This document shows, piece after piece, positions 2,050 to 12,177 of a stretch of DNA of 64,000 nucleotides. The stretch is taken from positions 30,613-94,612 of IMG/VR virus record IMGVR_UViG_3300036985_002287. One strand, written 5' to 3'. The position numbers and the translations under genes are program-made. Below the pieces are notes generated by a model, which saw only the letters and a list, made by a program, of their open reading frames with translations, did no database searches and had not been told where the DNA came from. The stretch is from a virus. Taxonomy: Duplodnaviria > Heunggongvirae > Uroviricota > Caudoviricetes. Position 1 is the stretch's first letter. Each line of letters starts with the position of its first letter.

Positions 2050-2077
2050 ATTATAGCATAACGCAGCATAAGGTCAA
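2050..2077 (-). promoter_or_regulatory. sigma70-type promoter TTGACC-N16-TATAAT
   Basis: rev-comp of ggtcaa (2072-2077) and attata (2050-2055). Confidence 0.6.
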
Positions 2078-2091
2078 TAGGATATGTACTC

Positions 2092-2120
2092 AAAAGAAAA
2101 GCCCGGGCGATAGGCCCAGG
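2092..2120 (-). terminator. intrinsic terminator of the ncRNA unit
   Basis: minus strand CCTGGGC-CTATC-GCCCGGG (7 bp incl. one G-U) followed by CTTTTCTTTT. Confidence 0.7.
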
Positions 2121-2451
2121 CTTCAATGTCTTTATCACTGACGGCACCAGGAACCCCTAGAACCGCTCTTCGTCACCACCCTCTACGGCGCTGTGTGACT
2201 ACCTATTTTCTAACTTCTCTTTATATTATTGACATTATTATCTCTCCAATGAGCTGATAATAAGCGGCCGGGGTTCTACCCCATCTATATTAGTTTTATC
2301 ATTTTAGTTCTTTGGATATATCTCCTCTGCGAGTGGATAATCGCTCAGTTACCTTTAGCCCTTATTTCATATATCATCTCGACAATTCCTACCACTGGTT
2401 AATAGGCTGTGGAGAGAGGATTTGTGTAGCGTACCGGTGCCATTGCTTCTA

Positions 2452-2577
2452 ACACAATACCATAAAACGAGAAGTCCTTTCTTAGTCTCAGCTACTCCAT
2501 AAATTTAAGCGAGTTAAAAAGTTCCCAACGCTTCTACAAGTCTTACAGTTTCGTCCTTCCGGACTCATCAGTTGTGT
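2452..2577 (-). ncRNA. hammerhead self-cleaving ribozyme (type I topology, long stem III insertion)
   Basis: CUGAUGA-GUCC-GGAA-GGAC-GAAA at 2571-2549; stem III ACUGUAAGAC/GUUUUAUGGU; GUA cleavage triplet (cut 2458|2457); stem I ACACAA/UUGUGU. Confidence 0.75.
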
Positions 2578-3103
2578 AATACTATTTATATCAACTACCC
2601 TTGCTCCGGTCTTGAACCGGACACCGAATGGTCACTAAGGCATGCTTGCAGGACCCGATGACAAAACTCATTCAATGCATCCCCATTTCAAGAGTGTATC
2701 AAAAATTCCTAAGGGGACTCGAAACCCCAAACTGATATATTAAAAGAATACCAGCGCGGCCGTTTAAGACGTAGGATGCAGGCCCACTGTCTCATACAGG
2801 AACTTATAGAAACAAGCTAAAAGGTGAAATAACACTACGGTGCCCTAAGTCAGCGAACCAACATTAGAACCAAACCGGGCCAGGGGACACCTCTCTAGCT
2901 GCAACAAGACTTGACAGAATCCACTTGCAGGTGGTAATCTTTCTCGTCAGCTTGCTTCTATAAATTCCCTACAATAACTAAAGTGAAACACATTATGACC
3001 GGGCTGTTATACTCTCTACTAATACCACCAGGGTATTCGGGTCGTTAGTCCGACTTAGTTACCTATCAACTAATGTATCTCACTTTAGCTATCGTATGTG
3101 TTT

Positions 3104-3132
3104 ATTATAATGCCGTTTACTTACACTGTCAA
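3104..3132 (-). promoter_or_regulatory. perfect consensus promoter TTGACA-N17-TATAAT
   Basis: tgtcaa 3127-3132 and attata 3104-3109 on plus strand; overlaps stop of HD gene; drives the ORF-free unit. Confidence 0.75.
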
Positions 3133-5333: not shown

Positions 5334-5768
5334 TTAAACCTTTAGGTATGCGATTTGTTCTTTGATTGCGTGTTTTTGGTCAGGCGTCAGCTTATCCCAT
5401 ACCATATTCGCAACAATGCGGCGATCATTGTATTCGTCTTGTGCTTTCTTAAGCTCGTTTAGCTTTCGTTCAAGTGATTCGAGTTCCCATTCTTCTGTAT
5501 TGTATGTAATGATATCATCAATATAGATTTTATTGGTATGATCTTCACACTCAAATCTAACAGAAGGTCCTGTCTCAGTCAAAGATACATGCGTAGATAC
5601 ACCGAGGTGGCATGCCATTGCTTGAGCATCCATCAACCGTTTAGGAATGGTTGCTTTATACATTGCGATATGCTCGGCCTCATTTAATTCGTATTGTCTA
5701 CGAGTCTCAGCTTCTTCAGCTAAACGCTTTGCTCTGCGGCCGGAAGGGTCGATTACTTTTGTTGCCAT
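5334..5768 (-). CDS. hypothetical protein (probably leaderless mRNA)
   Basis: 144 aa ORF; ATG 6 nt downstream of TATAAT. Confidence 0.6.
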   Translation of the reverse strand: MATKVIDPSGRRAKRLAEEAETRRQYELNEAEHIAMYKATIPKRLMDAQAMACHLGVSTHVSLTETGPSVRFECEDHTNKIYIDDIITYNTEEWELESLERKLNELKKAQDEYNDRRIVANMVWDKLTPDQKHAIKEQIAYLKV

Positions 5769-11574: not shown

Positions 11575-12102
11575 TTACTTTGGCCTGTAAAATTTGTGAT
11601 TGTCGATTATTGCCATCACCTCAAATTGTTTTGACCAGATAGGATATTTGTAACCTTTAGCTTTCATCACTTTGTCAGCAAGGTAAAATGTTGCGCCACC
11701 GGTCGGATCGGGTACTGTTCGGTGTGCCACTTTATGTGCTACCTGCATGGCCATTTGCCAACTTTGCTTGTCGATTTCGTTCTTTTGATTCGGTATTTTG
11801 TTTGGGCTAACTGCTATATTTCTAAGTGTAGCGTTATTATTAAATACGCTATACTGCTTAGGCTGTAATACGACCTGGCATAACGTCTTTTTAACCGCCC
11901 TATTTAATGCTGTGTATGCCACAGCTACCTGACCACGCTCCGGCTCGCTACGAGCTTCGCCGTATATAGCAGTAGCCAAACACTTGATCTGCTTCATATC
12001 AACCTTAACTACTTTCGGAGTATGATGCGGTTTAAAACACATTGTCGGCTGACCCAGACCTAATGTGGTAGGCACTAATGCTAGTAAGAGTAATTGCTTC
12101 AT
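11575..12102 (-). CDS. SleB-like cell-wall hydrolase, secreted
   Basis: Signal peptide; AIYGEARSEP...VAYTALNR...PKQYSVFN signature of SleB/Hydrolase_2 family. Confidence 0.7.
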   Translation of the reverse strand: MKQLLLLALVPTTLGLGQPTMCFKPHHTPKVVKVDMKQIKCLATAIYGEARSEPERGQVAVAYTALNRAVKKTLCQVVLQPKQYSVFNNNATLRNIAVSPNKIPNQKNEIDKQSWQMAMQVAHKVAHRTVPDPTGGATFYLADKVMKAKGYKYPIWSKQFEVMAIIDNHKFYRPK

Positions 12103-12109
12103 ACTTCCT

Positions 12110-12138
12110 ATTATATCTTAAATAGGAGTATGAGTCAA
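12110..12138 (-). promoter_or_regulatory. promoter TTGACT-N17-TATAAT, 7 nt from ATG
   Basis: agtcaa 12133-12138; attata 12110-12115; ATG 12102. Confidence 0.65.
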
Positions 12139-12155
12139 TAGGAATTAGAATAAGC

Positions 12156-12177
12156 GGCAGTCACGAAAAGTAGTGCC
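12156..12177. repeat. GGCAGT...hairpin element, short copy
   Basis: ggcagtcacgaaaagtagtgcc; shares TTCGYGACTGCC half with the other copies. Confidence 0.3.

What the first reader, a model, noticed from the sequence alone, without database searches (positions are those of the whole stretch)
2422..2457. Stem I 3' strand of the hammerhead can pair with a second ACACAA downstream (possible conformational switch)
The UUGUGU that forms stem I with ACACAA (2577-2572) is followed 16 nt downstream by CUACACAA (2429-2422). As a result UUGUGU-U-AG...CUACACAA can form an 8-bp hairpin with one bulged U, and this hairpin excludes stem I. Two mutually exclusive partners for the same hexamer is the classic layout for regulated or co-transcriptionally timed ribozyme cleavage. 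It could also define the folded 5' end of the 3' cleavage product.
Basis: inference. Interest (0 to 1): 0.5.

Follow-up and report, generated by a model that had tools for sequence, protein, structure and literature searches.

The report
Hammerhead strand refolds into downstream hairpin
In a phage non-coding RNA locus, a real self-cleaving hammerhead ribozyme has one stem strand that can also fold into a small hairpin just downstream; this most likely forms the folded 5' end of the released RNA, and there is no evidence that it is a regulatory switch.

Summary
On the minus strand, UUGUGU-U-AG (2457-2449) can pair with CUACACAA (2429-2422), which excludes hammerhead stem I (ACACAA 2577-2572).

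- **The hammerhead is real.** It is type I with a full consensus core. Stems II and III covary completely across eight phage lineages.
- **Stem I does not vary.** It is ACACAA/UUGUGU in every lineage.
- **The downstream partner is retained where the downstream RNA is intact.** All seven such lineages keep it at the same offset. It changes only by transitions that still pair with UUGUGU.
- **The support is modest.** There are no double compensatory changes. The hairpin is weak (-4 to -8 kcal/mol) and no better than shuffled sequence. A G-U-tolerant partner arises by chance about 45% of the time.
- **One natural lineage argues against a required switch.** In L029/L030 the partner has been replaced by an HNH endonuclease gene, yet the hammerhead is intact.

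My reading is that the hairpin is the 5'-terminal stem-loop of the 3' cleavage product, not a regulatory switch. That product is a roughly 365-nt structured RNA inside a self-contained ~1-kb non-coding transcription unit.

The surroundings are more interesting than the finding: two unannotated tRNA-like RNAs lie upstream, and in relatives a homing-endonuclease gene has inserted into the ribozyme and rebuilt it.

The parts
3104..3132 (-). Sigma-70 consensus promoter (TTGACA, 17 nt, TATAAT) that starts the non-coding transcription unit. It overlaps the stop codon of the HD phosphohydrolase gene.
   Evidence: 12 of 12 matches. It is conserved in relatives.
2597..2695 (-). tRNA-like RNA, 'module C' (context). 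It has a 7-bp acceptor-like stem ACUCUUG/CAAGGGU, a long helix, an invariant CCUGCAAGCAUG loop and a canonical T-arm UCCGG-UUCAAGA-CCGGA (2621-2605).
   Evidence: The acceptor-like stem, T-stem and long helix covary across lineages. There is no Rfam hit and no ARAGORN hit.
2572..2577 (-). Hammerhead stem I, 5' strand (ACACAA).
   Evidence: It is invariant in all lineages except ACGCAA in the rebuilt L021 ribozyme.
2565..2571 (-). Hammerhead core, CUGAUGA (C3-A9).
   Evidence: Invariant in all lineages.
2553..2564 (-). Hammerhead stem II, GUCC-GGAA-GGAC.
   Evidence: Compensatory variants are GUCG-GCAA-CGAC, GUCG-GUAA-CGGC, GCCG-GUAA-CGGC and GACC-UGAAA-GGUC.
2540..2552 (-). Hammerhead core G12 A13 A14 (2552-2550) followed by the stem III 5' strand ACUGUAAGAC (2549-2540).
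2469..2539 (-). Insert of 71 nt that closes stem III. It is structured and variable between lineages.
2458..2468 (-). Stem III 3' strand GUUUUAUGGU (2468-2459) and A17 (2458). The predicted cleavage site is between 2458 and 2457.
   Evidence: Fully compensatory variants are L003 ACUUUUGAAAC/GUUUCAAAGGU, L013 ACGUCUGAAGC/GCUUCGGACGU, L036 ACCAUAGGAUC/GAUCCGUGGU and L040 AUCGAUAAGU/ACUUAUCGAU.
2449..2457 (-). UUGUGU-U-AG. This is the stem I 3' strand (2457-2452) and also the 5' arm of the downstream hairpin. It forms the first nine nucleotides of the 3' cleavage product.
   Evidence: UUGUGU is invariant in every lineage.
2430..2448 (-). Hairpin loop (19 nt). It contains the conserved CAAUGG and the palindrome ACCGGU (2438-2433).
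2422..2429 (-). CUACACAA, the 3' arm of the hairpin and second partner of UUGUGU.
   Evidence: Variants GCACAA, ACAUAA and AUACGA all still pair with UUGUGU.
2225..2457 (-). Conserved structured RNA, 'module D', which begins at the cleavage site. It includes a covarying hairpin with a CUAUCCA loop, GGGG-UAGAA-CCCC, and UUAUUAUC/GAUAAUAA.
2098..2124 (-). Intrinsic terminator that ends the non-coding unit. It is followed by the next promoter at 2077-2050.

Best explanation
The hairpin is the 5'-terminal stem-loop of the RNA that the hammerhead releases.

A strong promoter (3132-3104) drives a roughly 1-kb non-coding transcript that ends at the terminator at 2124-2098. Within it, a type I hammerhead cuts between A2458 and U2457.

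While the ribozyme is folded, UUGUGU forms the weak, A-U/G-U-rich 6-bp stem I with ACACAA 2577-2572. After cleavage, stem I is held together only between two separate molecules, so it falls apart. UUGUGU is now the extreme 5'-hydroxyl end of the product, and it pairs with the local copy CUACACAA 30 nt downstream.

This would give the roughly 365-nt product a base-paired 5' end with no overhang, and a terminator hairpin at its 3' end. It would also remove the substrate strand from the ribozyme, which makes cleavage effectively irreversible. Before cleavage, the two pairings have nearly equal energy and probably exchange, so the hairpin may slow cleavage somewhat but does not gate it.

Shown here: the anatomy, the conservation, the hammerhead covariation and the transcription signals. 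Inferred: self-cleavage itself, the order of folding events, and stabilisation of the product.
For: **The hammerhead is real.**
- The core is full consensus.
- Stems II and III change completely, with compensation, in L003, L013, L029, L036 and L040.

**The hairpin belongs to the product.**
- It starts at product nucleotide +1.
- It is the RNAalifold consensus for the product alone.
- Base-pair probability is 0.66-0.98 for the isolated 50-nt product in W, L001, L003 and L021.
- It is the minimum-free-energy fold, or within about 1 kcal/mol of it, for the isolated segment in six lineages, including the most divergent one, L036.

**The partner is retained.**
- All seven lineages with an intact downstream RNA keep a partner at +29 to +36: ACACAA, GCACAA, ACAUAA or AUACGA.
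- 47 of 47 aligned cells form a pair.
- All four variable hexamer positions change by transitions only. By comparison, only 44% of variable columns in the rest of the RNA are transition-only, and the four nucleotides 5' of the hexamer vary by transversions.

**Stem I is frozen.**
- UUGUGU is invariant although the other two stems are not. That is what a strand serving two partners would show.

**Other support.**
- The hammerhead and the downstream RNA occur together. L015 lacks both.
- The unit is bounded by a promoter and a terminator.
- Unrelated phage hammerheads with the same core leave an unpaired product 5' end, so this is a family-specific feature.
Against: - There is no double compensatory change, because the shared strand never varies.
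- The hairpin is weak, and 7-71% of dinucleotide shuffles do as well.
- Any transition in ACACAA keeps pairing with an all-U/G strand. A G-U-tolerant partner appears by chance 45% of the time within 44 nt.
- In L002 and L013 the model prefers other folds for the product: base-pair probability for the hairpin is 0.35 and 0.03.
- L029/L030 have lost the partner and most of the downstream RNA to an HNH gene insertion but keep the hammerhead. So the ribozyme has value without this hairpin.
- Cleavage, RNA ends and RNA stability were not measured.
Confidence: 0.45

Rival explanations
1. Conformational switch or timer. Before cleavage, the downstream ACACAA competes with stem I. Cleavage is then possible only in a short co-transcriptional window, or is tuned by a factor that shifts the equilibrium.
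For: - With either pairing enforced, the hairpin ensemble is 0.7-5.4 kcal/mol more favourable than the stem I ensemble in all six lineages.
- Stem I probability is 0.41-0.87 when the transcript ends at +6. It falls to 0.1 or below once 36-50 further nucleotides are added in W, L001, L002 and L003.
- Precedent: viroid hammerheads are transient alternative folds (PMC3376415).
Against: - The predicted competitor is not consistent between lineages. It is a proximal segment in W and L002, the distal ACACAA in L001, and a register-shifted upstream strand in L003.
- No aptamer-like or protein-site feature is evident.
- The energy model ignores the tertiary stabilisation of the hammerhead core.
- L029/L030 keep the ribozyme without the partner.
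- There is no covariation.
Confidence: 0.2
2. No selected function. The second ACACAA is a chance partner, or one conserved for another reason, of a promiscuous G/U-rich hexamer. It sits inside a conserved RNA whose sequence is constrained for other purposes.
For: - Shuffles do as well energetically.
- The chance of a wobble-tolerant partner is 45%.
- There is no compensatory change.
- The loop next to it (CAAUGG.ACCGGUA) is at least as conserved as the arm.
- The partner is dispensable in L029/L030.
Against: - A perfect Watson-Crick hexamer within 44 nt is expected only about 0.5% of the time.
- The purine/pyrimidine pattern is kept at the same offset in L036 and L040, where the flanks have diverged by transversions.
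- Four of four variable positions are transition-only. That gives about 0.04 (0.44^4) against the baseline, if the four changes are treated as independent.
- The hairpin begins exactly at the cleavage site.
Confidence: 0.3
3. Relic of mobility. The direct repeats (U)ACACAA at 2578-2572 and 2428-2422 are a target-site duplication left by a roughly 150-nt hammerhead cassette.
For: - A 7-nt direct repeat flanks the ribozyme in the window.
- The locus is a hot spot for mobile HNH genes.
Against: - No relative shows an empty site with the downstream RNA but no hammerhead. L015 lacks both.
- The repeat is needed for stem I anyway.
- The substitutions in the repeat are pairing-compatible only.
Confidence: 0.05

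Closest known systems
Type I hammerhead ribozymes in phage and prophage intergenic regions (Rfam clan CL00010; Perreault et al. 2011, PMC3088659)
   Same: It has the same consensus core, three stems, an open stem I and a GUA cleavage triplet. It lies between genes of a phage. The identical core plus stem II, CUGAUGAGUCCGGAAGGACGAAAC, occurs in six other IMG/VR phage contigs outside this family.
   Different: - Stem III carries a 71-nt insert, so no Rfam model reaches its gathering score (28 bits against 48.5).
- It sits inside a non-coding transcription unit rather than just upstream of a ribosome-binding site and start codon.
- Stem I is invariant in sequence.
- The product 5' end has a local partner, which the unrelated examples lack.
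Viroid and satellite hammerheads as transient alternative folds (Flores et al. 2012, PMC3376415)
   Same: The ribozyme strands have a competing pairing that takes over outside the catalytic window. The active fold is only one of several conformers.
   Different: In those cases the competing fold is the very stable rod or branched genome structure of a circular replicon. Here it is a weak local hairpin of about -5 kcal/mol in a linear phage transcript, with no rolling-circle context.
HDV ribozyme flanking-sequence attenuators (alternative pairings of ribozyme strands with flanks).
   Same: A flanking sequence pairs with a ribozyme strand and can reduce co-transcriptional cleavage.
   Different: It is a different ribozyme class. 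In HDV the effect was shown experimentally. Here it is only predicted, and the prediction is inconsistent between lineages.
5'-terminal stabilising stem-loops of bacterial RNAs, such as the ompA 5' UTR. This comparison rests on my own knowledge.
   Same: The hairpin begins at the very first nucleotide of the RNA. That is the geometry known to protect against 5'-end-dependent RNases.
   Different: The end is made by ribozyme cleavage (5'-OH) rather than by transcription initiation. The stem is much weaker. The effect is untested.
Discontinuous hammerhead of mammalian Clec2 genes, and open reading frames housed in peripheral loops of group I introns (the Clec2 case is summarised in PMC6765202)
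   Same: In relative L021 the ribozyme tolerates a large insert. An HNH gene sits within it, and the gene's 3' end encodes the new 5' half of the hammerhead.
   Different: In L021 the insertion duplicated and re-coded the ribozyme's 5' half, rather than simply lengthening a loop. No splicing is involved.

Membership tests
Hammerhead ribozyme (type I) | Conserved core: C3 U4 G5 A6 N7 G8 A9, and G12 A13 A14 | tested here: met
   CUGAUGA is at 2571-2565 and GAA at 2552-2550. Both are invariant in all intact lineages.
Hammerhead ribozyme (type I) | Three helices around the core, with stem I open and stems II and III closed, supported by covariation | tested here: met
   Stems II and III have multiple fully compensatory variants. 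Stem I pairs in every sequence but never covaries; the only change is A-U to G-U in L021.
Hammerhead ribozyme (type I) | A15.1-U16.1 pair, and a cleavable N-U-H triplet where H is not G | tested here: met
   A2549-U2459 is present and the triplet is GUA (2460-2458). L040 has AUA.
Hammerhead ribozyme (type I) | Score at or above the Rfam gathering threshold | tested here: not met
   The best hit is RF00008 at 28.0 bits against 48.5, E = 8e-4, and it covers only the 5' half. There was nothing at gathering thresholds. The 71-nt stem III insert explains the shortfall.
Hammerhead ribozyme (type I) | Tertiary contact between stem I and loop II that gives fast cleavage | tested here: inconclusive
   Loop II is GNRA-like in most lineages (GGAA, GCAA, GUAA, UGAAA). 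No receptor or pseudoknot partner could be identified.
Hammerhead ribozyme (type I) | Site-specific self-cleavage that gives 2',3'-cyclic phosphate and 5'-OH ends | not testable with these tools
   Needs in vitro transcription or end mapping.
Ribozyme conformational switch (alternative pairing that controls cleavage) | Two mutually exclusive pairings of comparable stability | tested here: met
   The stem I duplex is -4.5 kcal/mol and the hairpin -4 to -8 kcal/mol. The restricted ensembles differ by 0.7-5.4 kcal/mol.
Ribozyme conformational switch (alternative pairing that controls cleavage) | Evolutionary support for the alternative helix (covariation, or conservation beyond its surroundings) | tested here: inconclusive
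   All aligned cells pair and changes are transitions only. However, there are no double changes, the arm is not more conserved than the loop, and the partner is absent in L029/L030.
Ribozyme conformational switch (alternative pairing that controls cleavage) | An input (ligand, protein, temperature or transcription kinetics) that shifts the balance and changes the cleavage rate | not testable with these tools
   No sensor domain is evident. Kinetic assays are required.

The most novel reading that the evidence does not exclude
The hammerhead acts as a maturation device for a new phage non-coding RNA. Cleavage frees the invariant UUGUGU strand. That strand snaps into a 5'-terminal hairpin whose loop carries a self-complementary sequence: ACCGGU, GUACCGGUAC, GCGCGC or ACUUCGAAGU in different lineages. 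Only the processed RNA could then dimerise through a kissing loop or bind a partner. The whole ~1-kb unit (two tRNA-like RNAs, the ribozyme and this RNA) would be a previously undescribed RNA operon of freshwater jumbo phages.
Probability: 0.12. Interest if true: 0.7.

Novelty: new variant of a known kind. Interest (0 to 1): 0.4.

Why it matters
The biological roles of bacterial and phage hammerheads are still largely unknown (PMC6765202). Here the ribozyme is not processing an mRNA. It lies inside a dedicated non-coding transcription unit and defines the 5' end of a conserved structured RNA.

If the released stem I strand really becomes the product's 5' hairpin, this would be a simple, protein-free way to make cleavage irreversible and to cap an RNA end. 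It would also explain why stem I is frozen in sequence while the other stems drift.

The locus is also a natural experiment. Homing-endonuclease genes have invaded the ribozyme twice, and one of them rebuilt it. This shows that the ribozyme itself is under selection.

Tried and rejected
- **Rfam.** A scan at gathering thresholds over the whole window found only three tRNAs. A permissive scan of 2200-2800 found only a partial hammerhead hit and noise.
- **Known phage genomes.** blastn of the locus against 50,697 phage records gave no match.
- **Bacterial genomes.** The pattern scan gave only chance hits, L045-L047. In the metagenome scan, L018, L027 and L028 were also chance hits.
- **Second ribozyme or circular RNA.** CUGACGAG at about 2950 has no GAAA or stem architecture and lies in a covarying long helix, so I rejected it.
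- **tmRNA, permuted tmRNA, or a group I intron in a tRNA** as the identity of the upstream conserved RNA. I rejected these: ARAGORN and Rfam find nothing, both acceptor strands are local, there is no CCA and no G3-U70.
- **Energy-based significance of the hairpin.** Not significant.
- **Column-wise stem III counts on the MAFFT alignment.** These undercount pairs because L003 and L013 have 11 bp in a shifted register, so I checked those pairs by hand.
- **A compensating new partner in L029** (CUAACCCACAA at about +66). I considered it, but the fold model does not predict it.
- **Literature.** Searches for hammerhead plus HNH or tRNA-like in phages found nothing relevant.
- **Contig look-ups.** Two returned no DNA.

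Full report
**1. The observation**

On the minus strand the sequence reads ...GUUUUAUGGUA|UUGUGUUAGAAGCAAUGGCACCGGUACGCUACACAAAUCC.... UUGUGU (2457-2452) is complementary to ACACAA at 2577-2572 and also to ACACAA at 2427-2422. With U2451 bulged, A2450-U2428 and G2449-C2429 extend the second pairing to 8 bp around a 19-nt loop. The full pattern is unique in the window and absent from 100 shuffles.

**2. The hammerhead is real**

The anatomy is as follows:
- ACACAA is followed by CUGAUGA (2571-2565).
- Stem II is GUCC-GGAA-GGAC (2564-2553).
- G12 A13 A14 lie at 2552-2550.
- The stem III 5' strand ACUGUAAGAC (2549-2540) is followed by a 71-nt insert and the 3' strand GUUUUAUGGU (2468-2459).
- A17 is at 2458, and stem I then closes with UUGUGU.

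This is a type I hammerhead. Rfam reports only a partial type III hit of 28 bits, against a gathering score of 48.5, because of the insert.

I collected relatives in four ways:
- from IMG/VR through the neighbouring HD phosphohydrolase gene;
- through the exact hammerhead core sequence;
- through an 18-mer of an upstream conserved RNA, in the viral and metagenome collections;
- through contigs encoding homologues of the HD protein at 54-80% identity.

This gave eight distinct hammerhead lineages.
- Stem II appears as GUCG-GCAA-CGAC, GUCG-GUAA-CGGC, GUCG-GUAA-CGAC, GCCG-GUAA-CGGC and GACC-UGAAA-GGUC.
- Stem III appears as ACUUUUGAAAC/GUUUCAAAGGU, ACGUCUGAAGC/GCUUCGGACGU, ACUGUAAGAC/GUUUUACAGU, ACCAUAGGAUC/GAUCCGUGGU and AUCGAUAAGU/ACUUAUCGAU.
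- The core never changes.

Self-cleavage itself is inferred, not shown.

**3. Stem I is frozen**

In all these lineages stem I is ACACAA/UUGUGU, even where the HD protein is only 54-59% identical and the other two stems share almost no sequence. The single exception is instructive and is described in section 7.

**4. Is the downstream hairpin selected?**

Seven lineages have an intact downstream RNA: W/L021, L001, L002, L013, L003, L040 and L036. All carry a partner hexamer at product positions +29 to +36. The forms are ACACAA, GCACAA (L013, L040), ACAUAA (L003) and AUACGA (L036).

Evidence for selection:
- Every aligned cell forms a standard pair, 47 of 47.
- RNAalifold on the product alone predicts this helix.
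- All four variable hexamer positions change by transitions only. Only 44% of variable columns in the rest of the RNA are transition-only, and the four nucleotides just 5' of the hexamer vary by transversions. Treated as independent, that gives about 0.04.

Caveats:
- UUGUGU never varies, so there is no double compensatory change, and the shuffle control carries no information.
- Any transition in ACACAA keeps a pair with an all-U/G strand.
- A G-U-tolerant partner somewhere within 44 nt arises by chance 45% of the time. A perfect Watson-Crick partner arises 0.5% of the time.
- The hairpin is weak, at -4 to -8 kcal/mol. Its energetic contribution is matched by 7-71% of dinucleotide shuffles.
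It is lost in L040 and replaced by other pairs in L003.

**5. Switch or product structure?**

In the nearest-neighbour model, stem I has probability 0.41-0.87 when the transcript ends at +6. It falls to 0.1 or below in W, L001, L002 and L003 once 36-50 further nucleotides are present. Ensembles with the hairpin enforced are 0.7-5.4 kcal/mol better than ensembles with stem I enforced. So competition is plausible.

Three points weaken the switch reading:
- The predicted competitor differs by lineage. It is a proximal segment (+11 to +27) in W and L002, the distal hexamer in L001, and a register-shifted upstream strand in L003.
- The model ignores the tertiary energy of the hammerhead core.
- L029/L030 are a natural deletion test. 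These are two samples with identical sequence in which an HNH_3 endonuclease gene on the opposite strand replaces product nucleotides from +13 to about +690. The distal partner is gone, yet the hammerhead is intact with well-paired stems. No substitute hairpin is predicted.

The ribozyme is therefore maintained without the partner.

Conversely, the hairpin travels with the downstream RNA. L015 lacks both the ribozyme and that RNA. Unrelated phage hammerheads with the same core leave an unpaired product 5' end, directly upstream of a ribosome-binding site and start codon.

I conclude that the hairpin is best read as the 5'-terminal stem-loop of the product. It forms once cleavage turns stem I into a pairing between two separate molecules. 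Its likely effects are making cleavage irreversible and protecting the 5' end. Both effects are inference.

**6. What the locus is**

The finding lies in a 973-nt stretch (3120-2148, minus strand) with no open reading frame of 50 aa or more. The stretch is bounded by a perfect sigma-70 promoter (3132-3104) and an intrinsic terminator (2124-2098), which is followed by the next promoter. The promoter is conserved in relatives. The locus is therefore a self-contained non-coding transcription unit of about 1 kb.

The host genome is an uncultured freshwater jumbo phage. Its family B DNA polymerase is about 42% identical to those of Agrobacterium phage Atu_ph07 and Sinorhizobium phage Phosso.

Cleavage would split the transcript into a 5' part of about 640 nt and a 3' RNA of about 365 nt. 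The 3' RNA starts with the hairpin and ends with the terminator. Its first ~230 nt are conserved and show covarying helices.

**7. Seen on the way**

- **Two tRNA-like RNAs upstream.** One is at 2695-2597 and the other at about 2805-2703. Each has an acceptor-like stem abutting a T-arm, and both features covary. This region is 97.8% identical between the window and L003, whereas the adjacent coding sequence is 77% identical. Neither Rfam nor ARAGORN recognises them.
- **An endonuclease gene inside the ribozyme.** In L021 a 277-aa HNH homing endonuclease gene is inserted after the remnant ACACAACUGAUGAGCUCGG. Its last codons (T Q L M R S T V S E K E stop) encode a new stem I strand ACGCAA, CUGAUGA, and stem II GAAGC...GCUUC. 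GAAAC and the original 3' half follow. The ribozyme was rebuilt, with a G-U pair in stem I. L017 carries the same gene, but the contig ends inside it.
- **Loop palindromes.** The hairpin loop holds a palindrome in each sequence type: ACCGGU, GUACCGGUAC, GCGCGC or ACUUCGAAGU. The 10-nt examples are individually rare, occurring in 1-2% of shuffles. In L001 four clustered substitutions swap one palindrome for another. They can equally be read as creating a C(UACG)G tetraloop.

**8. Comparison with what is known**

The ribozyme is a new member of the type I hammerheads found in phage intergenic regions (PMC3088659). It has an unusual long stem III and an unusual non-coding context. Competing folds around hammerheads are well known in viroids (PMC3376415). 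A weak local hairpin that re-uses the stem I strand as the product's 5' end, in a phage non-coding RNA, is a modest new variant and not a new principle.

**Verdict**

Interest is moderate.

Noticed in passing
window 2597-2695 (- strand); also L013, L015, L017, L021, L029, L036, L040, L043, L044: An unannotated tRNA-like RNA of about 100 nt. It has a 6-7 bp acceptor-like stem (CUCUUG/CAAGGG, GCCUUUG/CAAAGGC, ACUCUC/GAGAGU or CUCCUG/CAGGAG in different lineages) directly next to a canonical T-arm (UCCGG-UUCAAGA-CCGGA). It also has a 9-10 bp covarying helix and an invariant CCUGCAAGCAUG loop, but no recognisable D-arm or anticodon arm. The layout resembles the tRNA-like domain of tmRNA. Neither Rfam nor ARAGORN finds it. 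It is 97.8% identical between the window and L003, whereas the neighbouring gene is 77% identical.
   Followed up: partly
window about 2703-2805 (- strand): A second tRNA-like module. The stem AAGUUCCUG/UAGGAAUUU abuts a T-arm-like hairpin GGGG-UUUCGAGU-CCCC. Both covary in L015 and L017 (UUUC/GAAA, GGAG/CUCC). The module is absent from L013 and L036.
   Followed up: partly
L021, reverse complement, about 900-1860; L017 about 11600-12163: An HNH homing-endonuclease gene (277 aa) is inserted inside the hammerhead. A remnant ACACAACUGAUGAGCUCGG lies upstream of it. The gene's last 12 codons encode a replacement stem I strand (ACGCAA), the CUGAUGA core and a new stem II, so a complete ribozyme is restored.
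   Followed up: partly
L029/L030 5010-5570 (opposite strand to the RNA unit): A different endonuclease gene (HNH_3, 186 aa) has replaced the first ~180 nt of the downstream RNA, starting 12 nt after the cleavage site. Its stop codon overlaps UUA of UUGUGUUAGG. The hammerhead is intact. This serves as a natural deletion of the hairpin partner.
   Followed up: yes
window 2433-2438 (- strand) and the equivalent loop in L001, L002, L003, L036, L040: The loop of the downstream hairpin contains a palindrome in every sequence type: ACCGGU, GUACCGGUAC, UACCGGUA, GCGCGC or ACUUCGAAGU. In L001, four substitutions clustered within 7 nt convert one palindrome into another, against 3 differences in 138 nt elsewhere. 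This may be a kissing-loop or dimerisation site, or a small apical hairpin.
   Followed up: partly
window 3104-3132 and 2050-2124 (- strand): A perfect consensus sigma-70 promoter overlaps the stop codon of the HD gene. A strong intrinsic terminator is followed immediately by an 11-of-12 extended -10 promoter. The mechanically listed ORF at 1854-2147 therefore runs through a terminator and a promoter, and probably starts further downstream.
   Followed up: partly
window 2975-3095 (- strand); L002 about 5640-5740: A roughly 120-nt near-perfect long hairpin (CGAUAGCUAAAGUGAGAUACAUUAG.../...CAUAAUGUGUUUCACUUUAGUUAUUG) opens the transcript in W, L001, L021 and L029. L002 has a tRNA-like sequence (GCGGUUCGAAUCCGC) in the same place, and L003 has neither.
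   Followed up: no
window 2806-2968 (- strand): A long covarying helix (UUUAUAGAAGCAAGCUG/CAGCUUGUUUCUAUAAG; ...GCACAC/GUGUGU... in L003) encloses a branched domain. It contains a CUGACGAG that resembles a hammerhead core but is not one.
   Followed up: partly
L003, L013, L015, L017, L040, between the tRNA-like RNA and the hammerhead: A further conserved module (GUCUAUACCGAAAGGUGUAUAG...CCCACCCAAGAAGCACAG...GGAAGGCU) is present in these lineages and absent from the window. In L015 small ORFs are inserted within the RNA modules.
   Followed up: no
L038 916-2100: A more distant relative (HD protein 62% identical) has a different array downstream of the HD gene. Many short segments are separated by a repeated UUUAAAAUGAU-like motif, and there is at least one tRNA-like T-arm.
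   Followed up: no
L029-L036, downstream of the RNA unit: These phages encode a ribosomal protein L7/L12 homologue, and a more distant relative (L035) encodes S21, a few genes downstream of the RNA unit.
   Followed up: no
L004-L009: The identical hammerhead core plus stem II (CUGAUGAGUCCGGAAGGACGAAAC) occurs in unrelated phage contigs. Each copy sits immediately upstream of a ribosome-binding site and start codon. Some have long stem III hairpins.
   Followed up: partly
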